The notes under the pieces are model-generated. The model did not search any database. It was not told the DNA's origin and saw only the letters and a program-made list of their open reading frames with translations. Both the position numbers and the translations under genes were made by a program. Of a stretch of 64,000 nucleotides of DNA, positions 8,533 through 30,020 are shown one piece after another; within the stretch, counting starts at the first letter, position 1; each line of letters begins with the position of its first letter. Where the stretch lies: positions 57,364-121,363 of the IMG/VR virus record IMGVR_UViG_3300043466_002831. The stretch is one strand, 5' to 3'. This DNA is from a virus (taxonomy: Duplodnaviria > Heunggongvirae > Uroviricota > Caudoviricetes).

Positions 8533-10752
8533 ATGAGATTATTAACTATTTTATTTTTGACCCTATTAACGTCAATAGGGTATACACAGTATTGCCCTGC
8601 ATTAGGTCCTGACCAATTACTTCCATGTGGTGTTGGTACAACAACATTAACCGCTGACCTATCCCAATGTGGTGGAGGTGGGGCAAACCCAAATCAAACA
8701 ACAAACTACGGTGTAACTAATATACCTTACGTTGCTCAAACAAACACAGGAACAAATTTGTTTATGACGGATGACTCCCAACAAGGGCCGTTCAGTATTG
8801 GATTTAACTTCTGTTTCTTTGGTACGACATACACTCAATTCTATGTTGGCTCTAACGGGTGGATTTCATTCGGAGCGGGACAACCAACAACCTTTACGTC
8901 TCAACCAATCCCAACAGGTAATGGTTTGGTACCTAAAAATTGTATCATGGGTCCTTGGCAAGATTGGCATCCTGGTCTTGGAGGTCAAATAAAATACCAA
9001 GTTCAAGGAGTTGCACCATGTAGAAAACTTGTAGTTAGTTGGATTAACATGCCGATGTTTTCATGTACAGGTAATCAAGGTACATTCCATATTGTAATAT
9101 ATGAATCGTCTAACTATATTGAGAATTATATTCAAAATAAACCTGCGTGTTTGCAGTGGCAAGGTGGGACTGCGACACAAGGAATTCATAATTCATTAGG
9201 TACTATTGGTATTGCGGTTGCTGGTAGAAACTCAACTGCGTGGACAGCAACAAACGATGCGTACAGATGGACACCAAGTGGTCCTGTAGTTACACCAACA
9301 TTAACTTGGTATCAGGTAGGTAATCCAACTCCAATAGGAACGGGACCAACAATTACGGTGACACCACCTGCGGCAGGAGCACAATATACTTGTAAATTTG
9401 TTTATCCTATTTGTAACGCGGGATGGTCAAATTGTAATTTAAGTACAGGTAACTTAGGACCCGATACGGTCTTTGTTGTGCCAGGTCCACCAAACTTACC
9501 ACCACCAATTGTTACGACATTCAACCCAAATTGTGAGGGTAGTTGTGATGGTGCAATCAATGTGGTTTCAAATGGAGGAACAGGTGTAAGTACCATTTCT
9601 TGGAATGGACAACCACCATTATTTACATTAACCAACTTATGTTCGGGAATTTATTCATTTACTATTGTGGATGCGGCAGGTTGTAATGTTTCAGGTACGG
9701 CAACTTTAGTTAATCCACCACCTGTAATCGCAAATCCAATCATTGCGTCAGATACGGTATGTTATCAGTCAAACAATATGGTATATACTACAACTGATTT
9801 AGGTGTGGGATATACATATCAATGGTCATCTGTTGGTAATATTGTGTCAGGTCAAGGGAATGATACGGTTGTTGTTGATTGGTCAGTATTACCTGCGGGG
9901 TTTATACCAAATGCTGTTGACATGATTGCCGTCAGTCCAAATGGATGTTTAAGTTTCCCCGTATCGTTTGACATCACAATATTCAATGTACTTCCTGTGA
10001 TAACACCTGTTGGACCATTCTGTTCTAACGATGAGTTCACTACGTTAAATGCAACACCAATAGGCGGAGTATTCAGTGGAACAGGGGTAATGGGTAATGA
10101 CTTTTATCCGTCTAATGCGGACACATTAAACAATATTATCACCTACACCTATACTCAAAGTGGATGTATCTTTGATACCACTACGGACATCATAGTATAT
10201 GAGCAACCAATCTTATCTCAAATCACTCCATACAACGAGTTCTTTGAAGTTTGTGACGGTGATTCAATACCAAGTATATATAGTGTAACTTCAACCGTTC
10301 TTGGTGGATATAATGAATGGACATTATTGGGTAACACAACTGAGTCGGATAACTTTAACATTGCTTGGGATGCATTTGGAACATTTGTATTATCAGTTGT
10401 AAGTTATGTTAATGGATGTGCATCACCACAACAACAAACAACAATCACAATTGCTCAATGTCCTCAAGAATTATTATACATTCCAAATTCATTTACACCT
10501 GATGGTAATGAGTTTAATAATACATGGAGACCCATAATTACTTCAGGGTTTGATAACACAGAATACCGAATGACGTTATATAATAGATGGGGTGAAATTA
10601 TATGGGAATCTCAAGACATCAACGAAGGATGGGATGGAACTTATAATAATAGTATAGTTCCTGTTGGTTCATATGTTTGGACGGTACAACTCAAGGCGTT
10701 AAAGACCGATTATAGACAGATATTGTCAGGTAGTTTGAATGTTTTAAAATAA
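8533..10752 (+). CDS. large secreted surface protein with T9SS type-B (gliding-motility-associated) C-terminal sorting domain
   Basis: Signal peptide MRLLTILFLTLLTSIGYTQ. C-terminus YIPNSFTPDGNEFNNTWRPI...YRMTLYNRWGEIIWESQDINEGWDG...GSYVWTV fits the T9SS type-B C-terminal domain pattern. Terminator follows. Confidence 0.7.
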   Translation: MRLLTILFLTLLTSIGYTQYCPALGPDQLLPCGVGTTTLTADLSQCGGGGANPNQTTNYGVTNIPYVAQTNTGTNLFMTDDSQQGPFSIGFNFCFFGTTYTQFYVGSNGWISFGAGQPTTFTSQPIPTGNGLVPKNCIMGPWQDWHPGLGGQIKYQVQGVAPCRKLVVSWINMPMFSCTGNQGTFHIVIYESSNYIENYIQNKPACLQWQGGTATQGIHNSLGTIGIAVAGRNSTAWTATNDAYRWTPSGPVVTPTLTWYQVGNPTPIGTGPTITVTPPAAGAQYTCKFVYPICNAGWSNCNLSTGNLGPDTVFVVPGPPNLPPPIVTTFNPNCEGSCDGAINVVSNGGTGVSTISWNGQPPLFTLTNLCSGIYSFTIVDAAGCNVSGTATLVNPPPVIANPIIASDTVCYQSNNMVYTTTDLGVGYTYQWSSVGNIVSGQGNDTVVVDWSVLPAGFIPNAVDMIAVSPNGCLSFPVSFDITIFNVLPVITPVGPFCSNDEFTTLNATPIGGVFSGTGVMGNDFYPSNADTLNNIITYTYTQSGCIFDTTTDIIVYEQPILSQITPYNEFFEVCDGDSIPSIYSVTSTVLGGYNEWTLLGNTTESDNFNIAWDAFGTFVLSVVSYVNGCASPQQQTTITIAQCPQELLYIPNSFTPDGNEFNNTWRPIITSGFDNTEYRMTLYNRWGEIIWESQDINEGWDGTYNNSIVPVGSYVWTVQLKALKTDYRQILSGSLNVLK

Positions 10753-16731: not shown

Positions 16732-18087
16732 ATGGATAAACGTCATTACAATAGATGGTCTGATGAAGACTTAAAAAAAGAAGCGTTAAAGTATTCAACA
16801 TTATCGGATTTCAAAAATAACGCTAGTTCACAGTATAGGCAATCTTTAAAAAGGGGTAAAGAATTTTTTGATAACATAACATCTCACATAACAAGAAAAT
16901 GTGCGAATCTTTCTAAAAATGAATTAAAACAAATTGCTTTGAGATATGAATATAAAGGAGAATTTCAAAAATATGATAAAGCGGCATATCTTTCGGCGTT
17001 AAGAAGAGGACGTGAATTTTTTAACGACATTACTTCTCACATGAAAAATAAGTTAAATTATTGGACTGATGAGATTTTAAGAAATGAAGTACTTAAATAC
17101 CAAACGAAACTTGAATTCAAAAAAAACAATTTTAAAGCGTATCAGGCTGCAATGTCTAAAGGTAAAAATTTTTGGTATGATGTAACATCTCATATGGATA
17201 ATAGTCATTTTACAAGATGGACCAAAGAATTATTAACACAAGAAGCTTTGAAACATAATACTTTAACTGATTTTAAGCAAAAAAGTAAAGGTGCTCATAG
17301 TGCTGCAAAAAAAATAGGTATCGATTTCTTTAATTTAATAACTTCACATATGCCACAACCTAAAAGGTGGACCTACGAAGAATTAAAAAATGAAGCCTTG
17401 AAATATACCACAAAGTCAGACTTCCGAAAAAACAATAGGAATGCATATCAAGTTTCAAAAGAAAGAAAGATATTAAATGATATTTGTACACACATGGAAA
17501 AAATAGGTAGCAAATACTCAAGAATTATTTATACGTATGAATTTTCCGATAATAGTGTTTACGTAGGATTGACCTACAAACCATCTCAAAGACATAGTGA
17601 CCACATGAGCAAAAAAAATTCTGCGGTTTTCCTTTATATGGAAAAAACAGGGTTAGTACCTATAAAAAAAATAATGACCGATTTTTTAAATAAAGATGAT
17701 GCATCTGAGATGGAAACTGAAATACTGAACAAATACCGTAATGAAGGATGGAAAATTTTAAATCGTACTAAAACTGGAGGGTTGGGTGGATTTACAAGAC
17801 GTTGGACACCCGAAAACATAGAAAAAGAAGCACTTAAGTATGATACACTAACTGAATTTTATAAAAATTCACGCGCAGTAACTGTCGCCGCCAAAAAAAT
17901 AGGTGAAGACTTTTATAAAAAAATTATTTCTCATATGAAACGAACTACAGTTTGGACCGAAGAACTTTTAAGAGAAGAATCCCAAAATTATAAAACTAGA
18001 ACTCATTTTGCAAGGGGAAGTACGAGCGCATATTATACTTCTAAAAAGAGAGGATTATTAGATAAGTTTTTTCCGAGAAAGAAATGA
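16732..18087 (+). CDS. GIY-YIG homing-endonuclease-like protein embedded in seven ~48-aa tandem repeat modules
   Basis: GIY-YIG core IYTYEFSDNSVYVGLTYKPSQRHSDH...N. Seven repeats of the pattern W(T/S)xEEL(K/R)xEALKYxT(K/L)xxFxKNxxxAYxxxxK(R/K)GxxFFxxITSHM, five before and two after the nuclease core. Confidence 0.7.
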   Translation: MDKRHYNRWSDEDLKKEALKYSTLSDFKNNASSQYRQSLKRGKEFFDNITSHITRKCANLSKNELKQIALRYEYKGEFQKYDKAAYLSALRRGREFFNDITSHMKNKLNYWTDEILRNEVLKYQTKLEFKKNNFKAYQAAMSKGKNFWYDVTSHMDNSHFTRWTKELLTQEALKHNTLTDFKQKSKGAHSAAKKIGIDFFNLITSHMPQPKRWTYEELKNEALKYTTKSDFRKNNRNAYQVSKERKILNDICTHMEKIGSKYSRIIYTYEFSDNSVYVGLTYKPSQRHSDHMSKKNSAVFLYMEKTGLVPIKKIMTDFLNKDDASEMETEILNKYRNEGWKILNRTKTGGLGGFTRRWTPENIEKEALKYDTLTEFYKNSRAVTVAAKKIGEDFYKKIISHMKRTTVWTEELLREESQNYKTRTHFARGSTSAYYTSKKRGLLDKFFPRKK

Positions 18088-18135: not shown

Positions 18136-18447
18136 ATGAATCTAAAAGAATCCATAAGAAGAATAATAAGAGAAGAATTTAAATCGAAATTCTTTATTAG
18201 AAGAGTTGATTTAGATTTAGCTAAAGACATGCTTCCAATTAATGCAGAACAAGTATACCATGAAACTGAAAGTTATGAGCAATTCAAATATGAATTAACT
18301 TTAAGGGTTGTGGAAGCAATTATGTGGAATAAGTATGAACTTGGTTGGGAAGATTTACCTGAACAAGAAGAAATAGAATACGTGACTAAACTTTCGGATG
18401 CATTCGAGAAAACAATTAAACGGTTATATCATATTTATCATAATTAA
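18136..18447 (+). CDS. NTM family protein (MNLKESIR variant)
   Basis: MNLKESIRRIIREEFKSK; the AAGTATTTATTAATATG cassette lies upstream. Confidence 0.65.
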   Translation: MNLKESIRRIIREEFKSKFFIRRVDLDLAKDMLPINAEQVYHETESYEQFKYELTLRVVEAIMWNKYELGWEDLPEQEEIEYVTKLSDAFEKTIKRLYHIYHN

Positions 18448-18451
18448 TAAT

Positions 18452-18530
18452 ACAATTCATTCACTCACTACAAAGGGAGACTCCATTCGGGTCTCCTTTT
18501 TCGTTCACTCATGTATTGTATTATTTATCG
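18452..18530 (+). repeat. ~75-bp direct repeat copy A (contains terminator-like hairpin GGAGAC...GTCTCC + TTTTT)
   Basis: CATTCACTCACTACAAAGGGAGACTCCATTCGGGTCTCCTTTTTCGTTCACTCATGTATTGTATTATTT is nearly identical to the copy at 20808-20880. Confidence 0.8.
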
Positions 18531-18639: not shown

Positions 18640-19077
18640 TTAATAAGGGTATGAAACAGTACGAGCATTCGTATTGAATACTCCATTAATAATATTCAAT
18701 AAAGGTTTACTCCAAATATTGATATCACCGAATAAACTTTCAAGTCTTTCATACATTTCCTCAGATAATACGATGAGGTCAAACTCCTCGTCACTTACGT
18801 CAGGACTATTTTGGCAAGGTTCAGGTAACTCATCTTTAAGTTCCTGAGGATAATCACCATTATCATCGTAATACTGTCTATTAACCAATTTAAATAGGTA
18901 GTCATCGTATTCCCTATCAGGTAGAACAAACCCTATGGCATAAGGGTCACAACATACACCCATACCACAATTAAAATCAGCCCAATTATAATAACAATTA
19001 TCAAATCCCTCAAAAGAAATATCAATGTAGTTGTGAATAACTTTAGTAAGTTTAGATTCTGAGATAGTTACTTTCAT
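18640..19077 (-). CDS. NTM-like family protein
   Basis: MKVTISESKLTKVIHNYIDISF on the minus strand. Confidence 0.55.
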   Translation of the reverse strand: MKVTISESKLTKVIHNYIDISFEGFDNCYYNWADFNCGMGVCCDPYAIGFVLPDREYDDYLFKLVNRQYYDDNGDYPQELKDELPEPCQNSPDVSDEEFDLIVLSEEMYERLESLFGDINIWSKPLLNIINGVFNTNARTVSYPY

Positions 19078-19856: not shown

Positions 19857-19882
19857 CCTCACTGTAATGGTGAGGTTTTTTT
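19857..19882 (+). terminator. rho-independent terminator
   Basis: CCTCAC-TGTAATG-GTGAGG perfect stem followed by TTTTTTT. Confidence 0.8.
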
Positions 19883-19883
19883 G

Positions 19884-19891
19884 TATATTTG
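19884..19891 (+). promoter_or_regulatory. -7 promoter box TATATTTG, 4 nt upstream of HNH ATG
   Basis: TAnnTTTG-N4-ATG. Confidence 0.55.
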
Positions 19892-19895
19892 TATT

Positions 19896-20804
19896 ATGTT
19901 AGTTCGCGAGTGTCCATCATGTAATAGTAATATCACATATTCTAATAAGGATAATTTTAATAGTGCCAATAAAAAAGGTAGTTTGTGTAAAAAGTGTGCC
20001 GAGGCAGAGAAACACGGTAGAAAAACTATTACGGACATAAATACATTTTTTAGACTCTATAGCGAAGAACGTAGAAGTGTGGAGGATATTGCAAAACACT
20101 TTGAAGTGTTACCTAGCACTGTTAAAAATTATGCCAACCATAATAAAATAAACAGACGAGATTACGATATTATTATGGAAAAAGAAGGTAAAAAAAGGTG
20201 TCATGGATGTAAATCTTTTTATGTCTTTGATGACTTTCATAAAAACAATAACACTAGAGATGGATTGGTAACCAAGTGTAAAAAATGTATGTGTGAGAAA
20301 TCAAATGATTATAAAGATAAAAATCTTGAACGAGTGTTAAAATCTACAAAGGAATATTCAAAACGAATGAAAGAAGAAAATCCTGAGACCTTTAAAAAGT
20401 GGAGAAAAACCGCTAAAAAAAATTACTTAAACAGTGAGATTGGTAAGTGGGATAGTAAATGTCGTTCTATATTAAAAAGAGCTTTATCTAAAATGGGTTT
20501 AACTAAAAATGATACCACTAACAAATTATTAGGGTATTCACCTAAACAACTTCTTGATTATTTAAAAACTTTTGATTTATATTATGAGGGTGGATATGAA
20601 GTTGACCACAAAGTACCTATTAGTTATTTTAAATTAGGAACTCACCCAAGTATCATTAATTCATTATGTAATTTACAATTAACCACCATTAAATATAATC
20701 AAAATAAAAGTAATAAGTTTGCCGACCCAATTACTATTGATTATTATGATAATATTAAACTACATATTAAAGAAGAATGTCTTAATAAACTTATTGTGAA
20801 ATAA
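19896..20804 (+). CDS. HNH homing endonuclease with two N-terminal Cys4 zinc-finger-like modules
   Basis: CPSCNS...CKKC and CHGCKS...CKKCMC; C-terminal HNH signature YEVDHKVPISYF...N. ATG at 19896 preceded by TATATTTG-N4. Flanked by a 75-bp direct repeat. Confidence 0.7.
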   Translation: MLVRECPSCNSNITYSNKDNFNSANKKGSLCKKCAEAEKHGRKTITDINTFFRLYSEERRSVEDIAKHFEVLPSTVKNYANHNKINRRDYDIIMEKEGKKRCHGCKSFYVFDDFHKNNNTRDGLVTKCKKCMCEKSNDYKDKNLERVLKSTKEYSKRMKEENPETFKKWRKTAKKNYLNSEIGKWDSKCRSILKRALSKMGLTKNDTTNKLLGYSPKQLLDYLKTFDLYYEGGYEVDHKVPISYFKLGTHPSIINSLCNLQLTTIKYNQNKSNKFADPITIDYYDNIKLHIKEECLNKLIVK

Positions 20805-20807
20805 TAC

Positions 20808-20880
20808 ATTCCATTCACTCACTACAAAGGGAGACTCCATTCGGGTCTCCTTTTTCGTTCACTCATGTATTGTATTATTT
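20808..20880 (+). repeat. ~75-bp direct repeat copy B
   Basis: Same sequence as 18452-18530, immediately downstream of the HNH endonuclease gene. Confidence 0.8.
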
Positions 20881-21490
20881 CCCCCGCCTAATAGTCGGGT
20901 CCCCACCTAAACGAATAGACAGGTGAGATGTGATGTAGTGGATTATATGAGATTACATATAAGATAAGACCTTCGGTAAGAATTATATGTAATAAGATAT
21001 AATCCATAGAGTGTGGGTCAGGGATGGACTCGTAAGATAAGACCTACGGTCTATAATTAGAGAGTCCATTATTCTCCCACTTTCCTCCACTACGAGTTGT
21101 CTCCACTACGAAGGGACATAGATTGTCCACCTAACGAGGGGGTTTAATAACAAGTCGGTTCCCTCGTTGAAGGGGGATAAAATCCCTCTGAAACACTCCC
21201 TACGGTCGTTTCCCCGCCCTCTACACTTAGTGTTCCTTTTTTATCTGGAAATCGTATATAGTAAAAAAATGGTCCTCCTGATAGTGTCAGGGGGAAAAAA
21301 GTGGTCTTAATACTATCGTAATAAAGGAAATGGTGGTAGAAAGTGGGGGGAATTAGTACATAGGTGGGGAACCAAAAACCCGTCAAGGGATTATCCCCAA
21401 TGCAACGAGTCCCCTGACATTTTGACATTTCCAAATTTTTACCCCTAAAGTTATCAACAATCGACATTTATTTTCCCCCCTGACATAGTG
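20881..21490 (+). ncRNA. GC-enriched structured non-coding element (candidate structured RNA, intron-like or ribozyme-like; or replication-origin structure)
   Basis: Nested perfect hairpins: 20941-21004 (GATTATAT / TTACATATAA arms with a UUCG loop) and 21024-21069 (ATGGACTC / GAGTCCAT enclosing AGACC-UACG-GGTCT). Further helices AACGAGGG / CCCTCGTT and GGGGAT / ATCCC. No convincing ORF. Confidence 0.4.
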
Positions 21491-21554
21491 TCATGTGGAT
21501 AACTTAATTGTTAATAACTTTATTTTTATATGTTCCCCAACTATAATTAACGTC

Positions 21555-21797
21555 ATGAAGTATGTACTGACAGAAATAGATGACAGGATTAGAGTGACCA
21601 TCTCTAATGACGATAAAGAAATAGGTCTCCTTTATTTCGAGAAGGCTAAACTCAACTTTACAAATAAACCATTAAGCATGGGGTCATGGGCATGTGTCGA
21701 TGCCAAGATAGAAGATGATAGTATATTCCATGAAGGGTTCACCCCCAAACAAATGGTGGGGGAATGTCAGGACCTGATTAAAGCGGCGGGGTATTAA
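21555..21797 (+). CDS. hypothetical small protein (uncertain)
   Basis: ORF downstream of the structured non-coding region; MKYVLTEIDD is the more likely start than the track start 21495. Confidence 0.3.
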   Translation: MKYVLTEIDDRIRVTISNDDKEIGLLYFEKAKLNFTNKPLSMGSWACVDAKIEDDSIFHEGFTPKQMVGECQDLIKAAGY

Positions 21798-22262
21798 TTG
21801 TCCTTCTTAAAGAACATATTATATATCCCCACGACTAACCATCCCATGAATAGGTAAAACAAAATCTTTCTCATTAGAGTCTCTCTTTAATAAGTTTCTT
21901 AATATCATCCAAAGTGGTGACCTCTTTGTCCCCCAACATATCCTTAATAGAATTGTAAGCCCAAAGAACTGCGTAACCGATAACAACTGCTTTAATGAAT
22001 TTTTTCATGGTATATATATTTTCAACAAATATATGGAATAGTTGACACTATTCCAAATAAATTCAAACAATATTTCAATCCACCAAAGGGGCGGGGAAAA
22101 AAGATTAACCTCCTATAAAAAAATATAGGACGAGCTGCCTCTGATTAAGCTCCAAGGTATGTTCCACCTAGCCCTTCCTACTCCATCTTTCAGACAATAC
22201 AAAGGTACGGATTATATTTGACAACCCCAAACCTAAACACGAATATTTATTAATATATTTAA

Positions 22263-22700
22263 ATGACCATGACAGAAGAAGAACTATATGACAACTATGA
22301 ATTTAAGGTGACCAAGAGAGCCCTGATGAGAGAGTTTCCATTCATTAAGAATGTGTATGTGAAAGACCCCGCCACTATTGACCAATACAAGTCCTTCATC
22401 TTCTTAGATGCCGATATTAATCCCTATGAGTTCTCACATATGTATGGACTTAAGGTGGACAGGATAACAGACAAATACCTAAGACGAGGTGAACCTTATT
22501 GGGGACCATACCTTTCCCTGTTCATTACAGGTGGGGTTGATGATACATGGCCCATTAAGAAAGCCATTGGTGATTTGATTGATGGTATTCATAAGTCACC
22601 TGCCATACCACAAGAACTAAAGTTGGATAGGGAACTTGAGATATCATCTTACCATGCCAATCCTGATACTCTACCACGTGACATCATGTCATACAAATAA
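22263..22700 (+). CDS. hypothetical protein
   Basis: 145-aa ORF within the non-coding-rich hub. Confidence 0.5.
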   Translation: MTMTEEELYDNYEFKVTKRALMREFPFIKNVYVKDPATIDQYKSFIFLDADINPYEFSHMYGLKVDRITDKYLRRGEPYWGPYLSLFITGGVDDTWPIKKAIGDLIDGIHKSPAIPQELKLDRELEISSYHANPDTLPRDIMSYK

Positions 22701-22856
22701 AAGTTATTAACAATGGGAGGGGAGGGATAAAAGTTATTAACATGTCCCCCCTTTGGCATGGGGGCATACCCCCCTATGGGTACCCCCTCCCCCCCGTATC
22801 CCCCCTTACATACTGTCATATTGTCAGTTTAGGGGGGATAATCCCCTGTATAACGG

Positions 22857-22901
22857 GAAATAAAATTTTGGGAAAAAAATGTTCCTTTTTTGACTATTTA
22901 T
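22857..22901 (+). repeat. 45-bp direct repeat copy 1 (promoter-region repeat)
   Basis: GAAATAAAATTTTGGGAAAAAAATGTTCCTTTTTTGACTATTTAT is 43/45 identical to the copy at 23079-23123. Confidence 0.75.
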
Positions 22902-23007
22902 CTTATAGTAAAACTTATATATATGAAAAAGAATATCTGTTTATTGATTAAAAAAATTACTTTCGGGAAAGTTTGTCTCGGATGGTGTAAAATTTAATTA
23001 ACTTTAA

Positions 23008-23032
23008 CCCCTCCCACAAAGAGGGGTTTTTT
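23008..23032 (+). terminator. rho-independent terminator
   Basis: CCCCTC-CCACAAA-GAGGGG followed by TTTTTT. Confidence 0.7.
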
Positions 23033-23078
23033 ATTTCCTATAAACACGACCCCCTGTTTCGATTTAGTCCTATATACT

Positions 23079-23123
23079 GAAATAAAATTTTGGGAAAAAA
23101 ATGTCCCTTTTTTGACTATTTAT
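23079..23123 (+). repeat. 45-bp direct repeat copy 2
   Basis: GAAATAAAATTTTGGGAAAAAAATGTCCCTTTTTTGACTATTTAT, immediately upstream of the gene starting at 23129. Confidence 0.75.
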
Positions 23124-23128
23124 ATATT

Positions 23129-23428
23129 ATGGAAAAAGCGTTTGAGAAACTTCTTAGGAAATTGTTGTTAGAAAAGTATCCGATTTATTTGGATGTCCAT
23201 GTTTCCGAATCGGGAAAGTATACCCCTAATAAAAGAATTTGTTATGAGGTATTTCTTATTATTTTTGATGAATATTATGGAACATCTTGGAGTACAAAAC
23301 AAATTGATGAGGTTAAAGAATATGTTAATACTCTTGCAAAATATATGGATATAAATATTTGTGGGATTTATCATGAAGTTGTTAATGAGCAAGAATGGGA
23401 AGAAATGAAATTACCTATTAAAAATTAA
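23129..23428 (+). CDS. hypothetical protein
   Basis: ATG at 23129 (MEKAFEKLL...). The track start lies in the upstream 45-bp repeat. Terminator follows. Confidence 0.5.
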   Translation: MEKAFEKLLRKLLLEKYPIYLDVHVSESGKYTPNKRICYEVFLIIFDEYYGTSWSTKQIDEVKEYVNTLAKYMDINICGIYHEVVNEQEWEEMKLPIKN

Positions 23429-24681: not shown

Positions 24682-25014
24682 ATGATAGAAGATATAAAAG
24701 TAATTCACCTCAAAAGTAATGCTCAACAACTTGAAACATGGATTGCCATGTTGAATGGGGAAATTGTGGGACACATCTATATGGAACGTGAAGAAAAGGA
24801 AAAGATTAAGTTTTTGGATGCTTGGGTTCATGAGGAACATAGATTGAAAGGTGTATTTAGAAAGTTGTGGGACACAAGATGGGAGTATGTTAAAAACCGT
24901 TATGCTGGTTATACTGTATATGCTTGGTGTAAACCAGGTTCATTGCCATTACTTTTGGAAAAAGGGTTTAGTGAAGGTGAAACATGTACGTATGTTGAAA
25001 AAATTGTAGAGTAA
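24682..25014 (+). CDS. GNAT-family N-acetyltransferase-like protein
   Basis: HRLKGVFRKL resembles GNAT motif A. TATCTTTG-N4-ATG upstream. Confidence 0.45.
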   Translation: MIEDIKVIHLKSNAQQLETWIAMLNGEIVGHIYMEREEKEKIKFLDAWVHEEHRLKGVFRKLWDTRWEYVKNRYAGYTVYAWCKPGSLPLLLEKGFSEGETCTYVEKIVE

Positions 25015-29096: not shown

Positions 29097-30020
29097 ATGA
29101 AGTACATTATCACTGAATCACAGTATAAGAATTTAATTGAATCTGATGACCGCTTAACCAAAATGGTTAATAGGTATTTGGACATGACATTCGGAAACAT
29201 GGTTCGAGTTGATACAAAGTTTGGTTCAGGTTATAAGTTTGACGGAGATGACCAATATCAACTTAATGTTTTCAAAAATGATTCAGGTAAATTGCAATTG
29301 GCAATTTCATCATCATTTATTAAACACCTTACCTCAATGTTTGATGTTTATAAATCTGAGGCGAGTGAACTTATTGCAGAATATTGTGAAGATGTTTTGG
29401 GTATGGAATTTGATTTTATACGAATTTGGCCAATTAAAATAACTGAATCAGATTTAACTCGAATAATTGAGAGAATCATACAAGAACAAGTTGCAACTGA
29501 ACCAATTAATTTTGATAAAGTATATAAATCCACTTATCCTAGTATGTTTAGACAAGTTTGTATGAAATATGCAAACGGAGATTATGACTTGGCATCTGAA
29601 TATTGCCAACTTGGATATTTGAGAGTTAACGATAAACTCCACACATTTAAGGGTGAAGGTAGTTTGGAGGGTTGGATTCGTCGTGTGATTACAACAACAA
29701 TCATCAATGAGTTCAGAGCTAAGAAAAGAAAAATCGACACAACAAGTGATTTTGATTTTGAAAGAAACGATGTTTCAGATGAACCTGAAGAAAAATATGA
29801 AGATATTGAGTTTATGGGTAAGTATACCGTGGCAGATATTAAAAACGCCATTGATTCTCTCCCTAAAGGTTATCAATTTGTTTTCTACCAATATTTCTAT
29901 AAAGACAAATCTCATAAGGAAATTGCTGACGCTTTGGGAATTGACGAAGGTACATCAAGGTCCCAATTGTCAAAAGCTAAAAAGAAGATTAAGGATTACT
30001 TGGAAAGTTTAAAAAGATAA
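29097..30020 (+). CDS. ECF-type sigma-70 family factor fused to an NTM-family N-terminal region
   Basis: N-terminus MKYIITESQYKNLIESDD. The C-terminal half has a region-2-like segment (LEGWIRRVITTTIINEFRAKKRK) and a region-4 helix-turn-helix (LPKGYQFVFYQYFYKDKSHKEIADALGIDEGTSRSQLSKAKKKIKDYL). Confidence 0.7.
   Translation: MKYIITESQYKNLIESDDRLTKMVNRYLDMTFGNMVRVDTKFGSGYKFDGDDQYQLNVFKNDSGKLQLAISSSFIKHLTSMFDVYKSEASELIAEYCEDVLGMEFDFIRIWPIKITESDLTRIIERIIQEQVATEPINFDKVYKSTYPSMFRQVCMKYANGDYDLASEYCQLGYLRVNDKLHTFKGEGSLEGWIRRVITTTIINEFRAKKRKIDTTSDFDFERNDVSDEPEEKYEDIEFMGKYTVADIKNAIDSLPKGYQFVFYQYFYKDKSHKEIADALGIDEGTSRSQLSKAKKKIKDYLESLKR

What the first reader, a model, noticed from the sequence alone, without database searches (positions are those of the whole stretch)
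20881..21490. 600-bp ORF-free, GC-enriched region with nested hairpins and UUCG/UACG loops: candidate structured RNA
The region is folded into long, perfectly paired nested hairpins (20941-21004 and 21024-21069) that share the core AAGATAAGACCT[TA]CGGT. Further GC helices follow (AACGAGGG / CCCTCGTT; GGGGAT / ATCCC; CTCCACTACGA repeated twice). Its GC content clearly exceeds the genome background, and the only ORF in it (21144-21467, minus strand) has aberrant composition. Its position directly downstream of an HNH endonuclease gene is the classical arrangement for group I intron-encoded homing nucleases, although no split host gene is evident here. Alternatives are a large regulatory ncRNA or a replication-origin secondary structure.
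Basis: partly seen in the sequence, partly recalled or inferred. Interest (0 to 1): 0.75.

Follow-up and report, generated by a model that had tools for sequence, protein, structure and literature searches.

The report
Conserved folded non-coding locus in phages
The flagged stretch is a real, about 680-base non-coding locus shared by many uncultured freshwater phages: a Y-shaped multi-hairpin domain followed by an array of promoter- and operator-like DNA motifs, matching no described RNA family and unrelated to the neighbouring HNH gene.

Summary
Window 20878-21554 is ORF-free and GC-enriched, and it contains two about 68-nt hairpins that share an apical core. It is one member of a large family: at least 143 loci and 76 distinct full-length copies, almost all from lake metagenomes and IMG/VR phage contigs. 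The non-coding blocks are better conserved than the gene that follows them.

The left half (20899-21230) folds. A closing helix with compensatory changes encloses two or three hairpins. Their stems differ between lineages, but they keep one design: A-rich internal loops, a 3-4 bp apical stem and a C-TTC-G or C-TAC-G triloop. This design occurs 55 times inside the element and nowhere in 714 kb of flanking phage DNA.

The right half (21230-21554) is an array of sequence-conserved motifs at fixed spacing: a TTGACA-N18-TAAAGT promoter-like site, DnaA-box-like 13-15-mers, palindromes and AAARTGGTC repeats. It lies upstream of a conserved 80-aa gene.

There is no Rfam, tRNA or tmRNA hit. The HNH gene is a window-specific insertion, so the intron idea is refuted.

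My best reading is a novel structured RNA plus a promoter/operator region. A replication origin with hairpins that fold as single-stranded DNA is a serious rival. Strand and chemistry remain unresolved.

The parts
20809..20866 (+). Boundary module: TTCACTCAC, then hairpin GGGAGAC-TCCATTCGG-GTCTCC (20829-20850) followed by T5, then TTCACTCAT. It acts as an intrinsic terminator for the upstream plus-strand gene and is part of the 81-nt repeat 20800-20880.
   Evidence: (D10). It is conserved in many relatives such as L006 and L022 and is replaced by another hairpin in L001 and L004.
20878..20921 (.). Conserved C-rich blocks TTTCCCCCGCCT (20878-20889) and GTCCCCACCTAAACGAATAGAC (20899-20920). The last bases form the 5' strand of the closing helix P1 (20916-20921).
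   Evidence: Conservation profile of 76 copies; alignments; coordinates.
20916..21103 (.). Y-shaped domain. Closing helix P1 pairs 20916-20921 with 21098-21103, and an inner helix pairs GTAGTGG (20935-20941) with CCACTAC (21087-21093). Together they enclose H1 and H2.
   Evidence: RNAalifold pairs 59-63/339-343, with G-C changing to A-U in 4 sequences. Variants are GAGACA/TGTCTC, AAGACA/TGTCTT and GGACAT/ATGTCC. Pair counts: covariation 0.213 against 0.140+-0.020 in shuffles (0 of 500 as high), 78.9% of cells paired against 35-56% when the partner is slid. The inner helix changes to ATGGTG/CACCAT or GGTGGTA/TACCACT in other clades.
20940..21005 (.). Hairpin H1: outer stem GGATTATAT/ATATAATCC, middle stem ATTACATATAA/TTATATGTAAT, internal loop GATAAG/AAGAA, apical stem ACC/GGT and triloop TTC (20972-20974).
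   Evidence: z -6.3. Relatives carry hairpins of different sequence but the same design.
21013..21080 (.). Hairpin H2: GTGGG/CCCAC, then GGACTC../..GAGTCC, then apical GACC-TAC-GGTC (triloop 21045-21047). It has the same apical core as H1.
   Evidence: z -4.3. A different hairpin occupies this position in L004, L016 and L018.
21086..21168 (.). Repeated (T)CCAC(C)TA(A)CGA motifs (21086, 21101, 21127), small hairpin H3 (GGACA-TAGAT-TGTCC, 21114-21128) and H4 (AACGAGGG...CCCTCGTT, 21133-21168) ending in the invariant TCGTTGAAG.
   Evidence: The interior of H4 differs between clades while ACGA/TCGT is kept.
21172..21242 (.). Hairpin/palindrome GGGGGAT-AAA-ATCCCTC (21172-21188), a second TTTCCCCGCC block (21209-21220) and the conserved GTTCCTTTTTT (21232-21242).
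   Evidence: (D12).
21258..21350 (.). Array of AAA(A)RTGG(T/G) repeats (21262-21274, 21294-21306, 21326-21337, 21338-21350) with small hairpin H6 (21274-21294) between the first two. Spacing is fixed across the family.
   Evidence: D8, D11; H6 z -3.7. L001 has two further copies.
21387..21398 (.). Invariant palindrome GGGATTATCCCC. It is one of three GGGAT-n-ATCCC palindromes in the 64-kb window, all within 20.85-23.8 kb.
   Evidence: Note that this motif was part of the search pattern, so its invariance in the collected set is by construction.
21411..21459 (+). CCCCTGACATTTTGACA followed by a sigma-70-like promoter: TTGACA (21422), 18-nt spacer, TAAAGT (21446-21451). It overlaps box 1, AAAGTTATCAACA (21447-21459).
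   Evidence: Promoter scan, 10 of 12 matches. Near-invariant in the family.
21481..21536 (.). Palindrome TGACATAGTGTCA (21481-21493), a perfect DnaA-box sequence TGTGGATAA (21494-21502, minus sense), box 4 TGTTAATAACTTT (21509-21521) and the conserved AT-rich stretch CTTTATTTTTATATGTTCC (21518-21536).
   Evidence: (I5). Boxes within one mismatch of TTATCCACA: at least 2 in 55 of 76 copies, and a perfect box in 51 of 76. The extended consensus is ATAAAGTTATCCACA.
21555..21797 (+). Gene c0 (80 aa), always immediately downstream of the element. It is followed by c1 (22263-22700).
   Evidence: Synteny in 7 of 9 long loci. More than 422 homologues, all hypothetical. Model pLDDT 83, with weak resemblance to a GNAT core.

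Best explanation
Window about 20878-21554 is one copy of a composite non-coding control locus. It is conserved in a lineage of uncultured, AT-rich, large freshwater phages (contigs up to 163 kb).

Left half (about 20899-21230). This part acts as a folded single strand, most probably a new structured RNA of about 300 nt. A closing helix (P1, with an inner helix) holds two or three long hairpins in a Y shape. Each hairpin presents the same apical module: A-rich internal loops, a 3-4 bp G/C stem and a UUC or UAC triloop. I infer that this module is the recognition site for a phage or host factor.

Right half (about 21230-21554). This part acts as double-stranded DNA: repeated AAARTGGTC sites, GGGATTATCCCC and TGACA-n3-TGTCA palindromes, and AAAGTTATCCACA boxes arranged around a TTGACA-N18-TAAAGT promoter. 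I infer that this promoter drives the conserved early-type genes c0 and c1.

Shown: family-wide conservation, conservation of structure with compensatory change, exclusivity of the hairpin motif to this locus, and lack of coding capacity.

Inferred: that the folded species is RNA, which strand it is, what binds it, and that the right half is a regulated promoter.
For: Family and conservation:
- The non-coding blocks are more conserved than the c0 coding sequence.
- Positions 20899-21175 differ at only 2 of 277 positions from L001-L003, whose c1 protein is only 73-75% identical.

Folding:
- H1 and H2 fold well (z -6.3 and -4.3).
- Relatives carry different-sequence hairpins of the same design at the same places.
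- Apical stems covary: ACC/GGT, TCC/GGA, CCC/GGG, GAC/GTC, CAC/GTG, CTC/GAG.
- P1 covaries.
- A closing helix that spans about 185 nt around two hairpins is typical of a folded single strand and cannot be explained by a simple inverted repeat.

Specificity and orientation: the motif occurs 55 times on the plus strand inside the element. Outside it, 714 kb of flanking phage DNA searched on both strands holds none. The single other hit is an inverted hairpin at a contig end, still inside the element.

Not coding.

Right half as DNA sites:
- Blocks are conserved in sequence with fixed spacing and variable spacers.
- The same motifs recur in a second intergenic region at 22700-22910.
- In the window, all four boxes, which lie up to 1.3 kb apart, changed together to TTAT(C/T)AACA. 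This fits co-evolution with a binding protein.
- A promoter-like site is present.
Against: - No sigma-70-like promoter or intrinsic terminator brackets the folded domain on either strand. No transcript data are available.
- The strand is unresolved. In hairpin stems, isolated A.C and G.T mismatches (plus-strand reading) are about equally frequent: 25:24. With tandem mismatches allowed the counts are 52:38, or 38:25 for cluster representatives. Typical RNA families show a strong excess of G.U over A.C on the transcribed strand.
- P1 favours the minus strand (A.C at its end pair, and AAGACA/TGTCTC intermediates). H4 and H5 show G.T on the plus strand.
- Triloops are unusual for RNA. On the minus strand they read C-GAA-G and C-GTA-G, the G-N-A class that makes exceptionally stable DNA hairpins such as N4 promoter hairpins (PMC4496689).
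- No Rfam relative was found.
- c0 looks like a mini-GNAT, not a DNA-binding regulator, so the protein that would bind the right-half motifs is unidentified.
Confidence: 0.4

Rival explanations
1. Origin of replication. The right half supplies initiator sites (AAARTGGTC iteron-like repeats and DnaA-box-like AAAGTTATCCACA boxes) next to an AT-rich unwinding stretch (21518-21536). Once the duplex is opened, the left-half hairpins fold in the exposed minus strand as single-stranded DNA with G-N-A triloops. There they would serve as priming or helicase-loading signals, as the ssi hairpins of iteron plasmids and G4-type origins do (comparison from my own knowledge).
For: - DnaA-box-like sequences cluster: at least 2 within one mismatch in 55 of 76 copies, a perfect TTATCCACA in 51 of 76, sharply localised 60-140 nt after GGGATTATCCCC.
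- The window has a perfect TGTGGATAA at 21494.
- There are 4-6 same-orientation AAARTGGTC repeats plus one inverted copy.
- Blocks at fixed spacing with variable spacers resemble the architecture of oriC-type origins.
- The locus is unique: one copy per contig, and 28 of the window's 47 C5/G5 runs fall within 3 kb.
- Minus-strand loops are C-GAA-G and C-GTA-G, the stable DNA triloop class (PMC4496689).
- Near-symmetric tolerance of A.C and G.T fits DNA better than RNA.
- No promoter or terminator brackets the folded part.
Against: - Cumulative GC skew shows no inflection at 21 kb, and genes run in the same direction on both sides.
- No initiator, helicase or primase gene is adjacent; the neighbours are ORFans and c0 is GNAT-like.
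- The box consensus extends well beyond the DnaA 9-mer (ATAAAGTTATCCACA). In the window the boxes changed in concert to TTATYAACA, including two boxes 1.3 kb away. This points to a phage regulator rather than host DnaA.
- The AT-rich stretch is only about 19 bp.
- A closing helix around two hairpins is harder to form in duplex DNA.
Confidence: 0.3
2. Transcriptional boundary only. The hairpins act at the RNA level on transcripts from both directions, as terminators, insulators or RNase III-type processing sites. They separate an upstream module from the early-type genes, and the right half is simply a set of promoters.
For: - The element always sits between a variable upstream module and c0-c1.
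- An intrinsic terminator lies at its left edge.
- Symmetric mismatch tolerance would fit hairpins that are used on both strands.
- Neighbouring small genes each have their own terminator.
Against: - H1 and H2 have no U-runs on either strand.
- The hairpin motif is absent from all other intergenic regions in 714 kb of related phage DNA, whereas terminators or processing sites should recur.
- The conserved asymmetric apex, its fixed orientation and the P1 closing helix are not needed for termination.
Confidence: 0.12
3. DNA hairpin promoters of the N4 type. Supercoil-extruded hairpins with a 3-nt G-N-A loop would be recognised by a phage RNA polymerase to start early transcription.
For: - On the minus strand, triloops closed by C:G have G first and A third, the loop class that gives N4 promoter hairpins their stability (PMC4496689).
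- Two or three copies lie just upstream of early-type genes.
- The stems are AT-rich, which favours extrusion.
Against: - N4 promoters are 5-7 bp stems with a central purine and specific stem bases. Here the apical stem is 3-4 bp on top of a large internal loop, the centre base is A or T, and the hairpins are about 30 bp long.
- No giant virion RNA polymerase gene is seen in the window; the largest ORF is 901 aa with no match.
- The element is internal in contigs of 89-163 kb, not at a genome end.
Confidence: 0.05
4. A recombination-shuffled or mobile DNA segment, either a homing-endonuclease co-conversion tract or a MITE-like element. In this reading the conservation reflects recent transfer rather than function.
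For: - Near-identity of 20899-21175 between genomes whose genes differ by 20-27%.
- Mosaic exchange of hairpin modules among lineages.
- HNH and GIY-YIG genes lie next to it in the window.
- Many contigs break at or near the element.
Against: - The locus keeps the same position relative to c0/c1 in all lineages, with one copy per contig.
- Distant members (45-65% identity) retain the block order, the spacing and the hairpin design with compensatory changes. That pattern requires long-term selection.
- There are no terminal inverted repeats or target-site duplications around the element itself.
Confidence: 0.05
5. One reading: a group I (or group II) intron or other ribozyme associated with the upstream HNH homing endonuclease.
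For: An HNH-family gene (19881-20804) lies directly upstream in the window.
Against: - No intron or any other Rfam model matches at E<=10.
- No flanking exon halves are present.
- Relatives carry the element without the HNH gene. That gene lies in a cassette bracketed by an 81-nt repeat.
Confidence: 0.01

Closest known systems
Large phage-associated structured RNAs of unknown function (GOLLD, ROOL and similar 'ornate' RNAs found by comparative metagenomics)
   Same: A several-hundred-nucleotide conserved non-coding locus carried by phages and abundant in lake metagenomes. It has a multi-helix junction with covarying stems and conserved unpaired A-rich segments. It has no known function and was detected only by comparison of sequences.
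   Different: No match to the Rfam models of these or any other families. There is no adjacent tRNA. About half of the locus looks like DNA-binding sites. Mismatch tolerance is nearly symmetric between strands, and the terminal loops are triloops.
Iteron/DnaA-box replication origins with single-strand initiation hairpins (for example RSF1010 oriV with ssiA/ssiB, R6K, and the G4 complementary-strand origin; comparison from my own knowledge)
   Same: Short repeated sites, DnaA-box-like sequences, a G+C-rich part next to an A+T-rich stretch, and long strand-specific hairpins beside them.
   Different: No initiator or primase gene is nearby and there is no skew inflection. The box consensus is longer than a DnaA box and co-varies with copies in another intergenic region. 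Both hairpins lie on the same strand rather than on opposite strands.
Bacteriophage N4 early promoter hairpins (PMC4496689)
   Same: DNA-type 3-nt loops with G first and A third, closed by C:G (minus-strand reading). Several copies sit ahead of early-type genes. Stem sequence is free to vary as long as pairing is kept.
   Different: N4 has a 5-7 bp stem, a purine at the loop centre, fixed stem bases and a location at the genome end, and it needs a virion RNA polymerase. Here a 3-4 bp apical stem sits on about 30-bp hairpins with internal loops, the loop centre is A or T, the location is internal and no such polymerase is seen.
Free-standing homing endonuclease cassettes of T4-like phages (relevant to the HNH gene only; from my own knowledge)
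   Same: HNH (19881-20804) and GIY-YIG (16732-18087) genes are inserted between genes. They are present in one genome and absent in close relatives.
   Different: They are not part of the conserved element. The cassette is bounded by an 81-nt duplication of the boundary hairpin module.

Membership tests
Group I intron | Conserved catalytic core (P3-P9) detectable with the Rfam Intron_gpI covariance model | tested here: not met
   No Rfam match at gathering score in 64 kb, at E<=10 in 20600-21800, or at E<=1 in ten relatives.
Group I intron | Interrupts a host gene (two exon halves); the homing endonuclease travels with the intron | tested here: not met
   The flanks are a complete HNH gene with its terminator and a complete small gene, c0. 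Relatives have the element without HNH. HNH lies in a repeat-bracketed cassette.
Group II intron / HEARO (IscB omega RNA) / GOLLD / ROOL / tmRNA / RNase P and all other Rfam 15 families | Match to the family covariance model; for tmRNA and tRNA, ARAGORN detection | tested here: not met
   Searches gave only sub-threshold chance hits (18 bits against a 70-bit cutoff, and similar). ARAGORN found 0 genes.
Structured non-coding RNA (generic) | Helices supported by compensatory changes across homologues | tested here: met
   P1: 4 of 8 pairs change on both sides; covariation 0.213 against 0.140+-0.020 in shuffles; slid controls are 35-56% paired against 78.9%. Apical and basal stems of H1/H2 differ in sequence but stay paired. 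The sequences are related, so these counts overstate independence.
Structured non-coding RNA (generic) | Strand-specific signature (G.U tolerated, A.C avoided) and a transcription unit (promoter, terminator, transcript) | tested here: inconclusive
   A.C against G.T counts are 25:24, 52:38 and 38:25. P1 leans to the minus strand and H4/H5 lean to the plus strand. No bracketing promoter or terminator was found. Transcript data cannot be tested with these tools.
DnaA-dependent / iteron replication origin | Cluster of DnaA boxes (TTATNCACA) | tested here: inconclusive
   Family: at least 2 boxes within one mismatch in 55 of 76 copies; a perfect box in 51 of 76. Window: one perfect box (21494-21502), the others being TTATCAACA or TTATTAACA. 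The conserved motif is 13-15 nt long, and copies 1.3 kb away changed in concert.
DnaA-dependent / iteron replication origin | Adjacent AT-rich unwinding element and repeated initiator sites | tested here: inconclusive
   A conserved 19-bp AT-rich stretch lies at 21518-21536, and there are 4-6 AAARTGGTC repeats. Unwinding and binding cannot be tested.
DnaA-dependent / iteron replication origin | Strand-composition switch and/or adjacent replication initiator gene | tested here: not met
   Cumulative GC skew rises steadily through 21 kb. Neighbouring proteins match no replication families. c0 is GNAT-like.
N4-type hairpin promoter | 5-7 bp stem, 3-nt loop with central purine and a sheared G:A pair, specific stem bases; a virion RNA polymerase encoded by the phage | tested here: not met
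   The loop class (G-N-A closed by C:G on the minus strand) is present, but the centre base is A or T, the apical stem is 3-4 bp and large internal loops are present. No giant polymerase ORF is in the window. Features taken from PMC4496689.
Intrinsic terminator | G+C-rich hairpin followed by a U-run | tested here: not met
   Met only by the boundary hairpin 20829-20850 with its T5 run. It is not met by H1-H6, and the scan found no terminator-like site in 20880-21550.

The most novel reading that the evidence does not exclude
The Y-shaped domain (closing helix plus two or three hairpins tipped with G-N-A triloops on the minus strand) works as folded DNA, not RNA. It would be a structure-specific replication-priming, helicase-loading or promoter signal embedded in an iteron and DnaA-box-like array. 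That would define a previously undescribed origin or promoter architecture for a widespread lineage of large freshwater dsDNA phages.
Probability: 0.3. Interest if true: 0.8.

Novelty: new member of a known kind. Interest (0 to 1): 0.6.

Why it matters
The locus is one of the best-conserved sequences in an abundant, uncultured lineage of large freshwater phages. The genes next to it have hundreds of homologues (at least 155 for c1, 422 for c0) and no annotation.

If the left half is an RNA, it is a new family of about 300 nt with a distinctive, repeated hairpin module. It would be a candidate for biochemical and structural study alongside GOLLD and ROOL.

If it is an origin or a DNA-hairpin signal, it gives the first handle on replication or early transcription in this lineage. 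It would also be a clear example of selection for folded DNA in a dsDNA phage.

In practice, the invariant blocks are a convenient marker for fishing these phages out of metagenomes, and they explain why assemblies break here.

Tried and rejected
- **Rfam.** Scans of the whole window, the region at E<=10 and ten relatives found nothing.
- **tRNA and tmRNA.** None found.
- **Annotated phage genomes.** DNA similarity for the region and protein searches with c0 and c1 gave no match. The only weak relative of the window is an unannotated 635-kb 'uncultured phage'. Searches with other large ORFs did not place the phage.
- **Coding potential.** The minus-strand ORF 21144-21467 is rejected as a gene because relatives do not keep it open.
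- **Long-range inverted repeats.** The repeats proposed by the repeat finder (20871-20885/21346-21360, 20897-20909/21361-21373, 21076-21090/21333-21347) are rejected as helices. They are not nested, and their 3' partners are not conserved or compensated in relatives.
- **UUCG/UACG tetraloop reading.** Rejected.
- **Genome terminus.** Rejected, because the element is internal in contigs of 89-163 kb.
- **c0 as an autoregulating DNA-binding protein.** Not supported; the model resembles a mini-GNAT fold.
- **Minus-strand leader for gene c2.** Not supported. c2 is adjacent in only some genomes, and in L006 it has its own promoter-like sequence.
- **Host identification.** A scan of 185,579 reference genomes gave only a chance hit in a Vibrio miaA gene.
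- **Strand assignment.** Attempts using folding energy, G.U counts and mismatch spectra gave conflicting or weak signals.
- **Inverted hairpin in L133.** It lies at a contig end and may be an assembly artefact.
- **Literature.** A full-text literature search found no description of this element.
Full report
**What is at the coordinates**

The window is AT-rich, with about 0.26-0.34 GC in 300-nt windows. It rises to 0.41-0.43 across 20900-21500. The interval holds only a 107-aa minus-strand ORF (21144-21467) and a 47-aa plus-strand ORF.

It lies between an HNH-family gene (19881-20804; weak tblastn matches to annotated HNH endonucleases) with a terminator-like hairpin at 20829-20850 plus T5, and a small gene whose ATG is at 21555.

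The hairpins are real:
- H1, 20940-21005: -25.5 kcal/mol, z -6.3.
- H2, 21013-21080: -29.4 kcal/mol, z -4.3.
- Smaller helices lie at 21114-21128, 21133-21168, 21172-21188 and 21274-21294.

The shared core AAGATAAGACCTWCGGT occurs exactly twice in 64 kb, where 0.18 occurrences are expected.

Two descriptive points need correction. The hairpins carry conserved internal loops, so they are not perfectly paired (arms 88% and 74% complementary). Their tips are triloops, not UNCG tetraloops.

**Known families**

No Rfam 15 model matches: not at gathering score in the window, not at E<=10 in 20600-21800, and not at E<=1 in ten relatives. ARAGORN finds no tRNA or tmRNA.

The region and its neighbouring proteins have no match in 50,697 annotated phage records. 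The only relative of the window there is an unannotated 635-kb 'uncultured phage', which shares a 739-aa protein carrying a type IX secretion sorting domain.

PHROG and Pfam scans of the larger ORFs give a sigma factor, thymidylate synthase, an RNA ligase and tail-related hits, and otherwise nothing.

**The element is a family**

Exact-pattern scans found relatives in IMG/VR. The metagenome record names and the contig sources point overwhelmingly to lakes.

In all, 143 loci carry the anchor motif, and 76 distinct copies are full length. A scan of 185,579 reference prokaryote genomes gave only a chance hit in a Vibrio gene.

The conservation profile shows that conserved blocks start at about 20855-20880 and run to the ATG at 21555. 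They are better conserved than the c0 coding sequence that follows. Note that GGGATTATCCCC...CCTGACATT was the search pattern, so its invariance in this set is by construction.

Against L001-L003, positions 20899-21175 differ at 2 of 277 positions. The c1 protein of those contigs is only 73-75% identical, and c0 is about 80% identical at the DNA level.

The minus-strand ORF is not maintained: only 6 of 76 copies keep a stop-free stretch of 100 aa or more.

**The HNH gene is not part of it**

Relatives have other genes upstream. In the window, an 81-nt direct repeat (18446-18526 and 20800-20880, 98% identical) brackets a 2.35-kb cassette containing the HNH gene. In L006, L016 and L054, a minus-strand gene (c2; window 18640-19077) sits directly beside the element.

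Downstream, c0 (80-95 aa) and c1 (about 145 aa) are present in 7 of 9 long loci. Both have hundreds of homologues, and none is annotated.

The element is internal in contigs of 89-163 kb, so it is not a genome end.

**Left half: a folded domain**

At the positions of H1 and H2, different lineages carry hairpins of unrelated stem sequence. Almost all share one design:
- a basal stem;
- an A-rich 5' internal strand (AAGATAAG, AAAACAAT, CAAAACAA);
- a 3-4 bp apical stem that covaries (ACC/GGT, TCC/GGA, CCC/GGG, GAC/GTC, CAC/GTG, CTC/GAG, GTC/GAC);
- a TTC or TAC triloop closed by C-G;
- an A-rich 3' internal strand.

A strand-aware search finds this design 55 times inside the element on the plus strand. 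Outside the element, 714 kb of flanking phage DNA holds none on either strand. The one other hit is an inverted hairpin at a contig end, inside the element, and may be an assembly artefact.

A long-range helix, P1 (20916-20921 with 21098-21103), encloses the hairpins. It reads GAGACA/TGTCTC in one clade, AAGACA/TGTCTT in another and GGACAT/ATGTCC in a third. An inner helix reads GTAGTGG/CCACTAC, ATGGTG/CACCAT or GGTGGTA/TACCACT.

Formal counts on P1:
- 78.9% of cells are paired, against 35-56% when the partner is slid.
- The covariation score is 0.213 against 0.140+-0.020 in shuffles (0 of 500 as high).
- 4 of 8 pairs change on both sides.

The sequences are related, so these numbers overstate independence.

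The larger inverted repeats linking the two halves, proposed by the repeat finder, are neither nested nor conserved, and I reject them.

**Right half: DNA-type motifs**

From TCGTTGAAG (21165) onward, the length is nearly constant across the family. Conservation takes the form of sequence blocks separated by variable spacers. The blocks are:
- GTTCCTTTTTT;
- ATAGTAAAAAnnTGGTC;
- GTCAGGGGGAAnAAAnTGGTC;
- GGTGGTAnAAAGTGGGGG;
- GGGATTATCCCC;
- CCTGACATTTTGACA;
- a TTGACA-N18-TAAAGT promoter-like site (21422-21451);
- AAAGTTATCCACA boxes in both orientations;
- the palindrome TGACA-n3-TGTCA;
- an AT-rich stretch, CTTTATTTTTATATGTTCC.

Boxes within one mismatch of the DnaA consensus TTATCCACA are sharply localised here. 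At least 2 occur in 55 of 76 copies, and a perfect box occurs in 51 of 76. The conserved motif is longer than the DnaA 9-mer, however: ATAAAGTTATCCACA.

The same motif set recurs in the next-but-one intergenic region, 22700-22910. The 3 kb from 20.85 to 23.8 kb holds 28 of the window's 47 C5/G5 runs.

In the window, four boxes read TTAT(C/T)AACA, including two at 22.7 kb, while most relatives have TTATCCACA. This concerted change looks like co-evolution with a binding protein.

c0 itself is not an obvious candidate for that protein. Its model (pLDDT 83) has four strands and a C-terminal helix and resembles a GNAT core only weakly (Foldseek E about 0.1, TM about 0.5).

**RNA or DNA, and which strand**

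This question is not settled.

For a single-stranded fold: covarying stems, the P1 closing helix, and an asymmetric motif kept in a fixed orientation.

For the plus strand:
- Both internal-loop strands are A-rich; unpaired positions are 43% A and 9% G.
- H1 and H2 are more stable as plus-strand RNA in the window.
- G.T pairs appear in H4 and H5.

For the minus strand:
- Hairpins across the family are more often more stable on the minus strand (74 against 48) and have more G.U pairs there (321 against 198).
- P1 has an A.C end pair (plus-strand reading) that alternates with G-C, and there are AAGACA/TGTCTC intermediates.
- A strand-symmetric recount of mismatches in motif hairpins gives A.C:G.T of 25:24 for isolated mismatches, 52:38 with tandems allowed, and 38:25 for cluster representatives.

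This near-symmetry is unlike typical RNA families.

On the minus strand the loops read C-GAA-G and C-GTA-G. This is the G-N-A triloop class with a sheared G:A pair, which underlies the unusual stability of N4 promoter DNA hairpins (PMC4496689).

No sigma-70-like promoter or intrinsic terminator brackets the domain on either strand. Cumulative GC skew shows no inflection at 21 kb.

**Verdict**

The finding is a genuine, widespread and undescribed conserved non-coding locus. A full-text search turned up no description of it.

I rank the explanations as follows:
- a new structured RNA (left half) coupled to a promoter/operator array (right half): 0.4;
- a replication origin whose hairpins act as folded single-stranded DNA: 0.3;
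- a purely transcriptional boundary: 0.12;
- N4-like hairpin promoters: 0.05;
- a functionless recombination or mobile segment: 0.05;
- a group I intron or HNH-associated RNA: 0.01.

Strand-specific transcript mapping and coverage or skew analysis on the full-length contigs would discriminate among these.

Noticed in passing
window 18446-18526 and 20800-20880: An 81-nt direct repeat (98% identical). Each copy holds TTCACTCAC, the terminator hairpin and TTCACTCAT. The two copies bracket a 2.35-kb cassette: minus-strand gene c2 (18640-19077), two small plus-strand ORFs and the HNH gene (19881-20804). Relatives have c2 directly next to the element and no HNH gene, which suggests insertion by recombination at the hairpin module.
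   Followed up: partly
window 16732-18087: A 451-aa ORF with a GIY-YIG nuclease domain (residues 265-337). It is preceded and followed by about five copies of a repeat of roughly 60 aa. It is a second homing-endonuclease-like gene close to the HNH gene.
   Followed up: no
window 22116-22215: A second ultra-conserved non-coding block upstream of c1. It is 100% identical to L001-L003, although the flanking genes are only 73-80% identical. It is not notably structured (fold z -1.2) and is followed by a TTGACA-N18-AATATT promoter-like site at 22218-22247.
   Followed up: partly
window 21798-22115: An insertion of about 320 nt that L001-L003 lack. It carries a minus-strand 44-aa ORF (21874-22008) with a hydrophobic N-terminus and a hairpin at 22034-22055.
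   Followed up: no
window 22700-23130: A second cluster of the same motifs: two AAAGTTATTAACA boxes, TGTCATATTGTCA, GGGGGGATAATCCCC, and GTTCCTTTTTT..TATAGTAAAA. It also holds an extreme C-run tract at 22745-22810 and a 45-nt direct repeat (22857-22901 = 23079-23123). The ORF 22742-22951 that covers the C-rich tract is probably not a gene.
   Followed up: partly
window 21274-21294 (hairpin H6), compared with L001 and L006: The core of this small hairpin is GATAGTGT in the window and ACACTATC, its reverse complement, in L001 and L006, as if the hairpin had been inverted. Nine metagenome contigs end within about 15 nt of this position, which suggests a population polymorphism that breaks assemblies.
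   Followed up: partly
window 21555-21797 (c0) and 24682-25014: The c0 model (pLDDT 83) resembles a truncated GNAT acetyltransferase core. A separate small ORF 3 kb downstream matches Pfam GNAT families (E 2e-6). Together they make two mini-GNAT-like proteins in the early-type gene block.
   Followed up: partly
window 29097-30020: A 307-aa ORF matching phage RNA polymerase sigma-factor families (phrog_1740, E 5e-22). It could recognise some of the non-canonical conserved motifs in the 20.9-23.8 kb region.
   Followed up: no
window 8533-10752: A 739-aa protein with a C-terminal CHU_C type IX secretion sorting domain. It is 55% identical to a protein of the 635-kb uncultured phage LR745206.1. 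This hints at a Bacteroidota host, yet the conserved promoter-like site at 21422-21451 is of the sigma-70 TTGACA/TAnnnT type.
   Followed up: no
L133:1-70 (contig start): One relative carries the H2-position hairpin in inverted orientation, with apex ACC-GTA-GGT on the plus strand. Because it lies at the very end of a contig, it may be an assembly artefact of the inverted repeat rather than a natural flip.
   Followed up: partly
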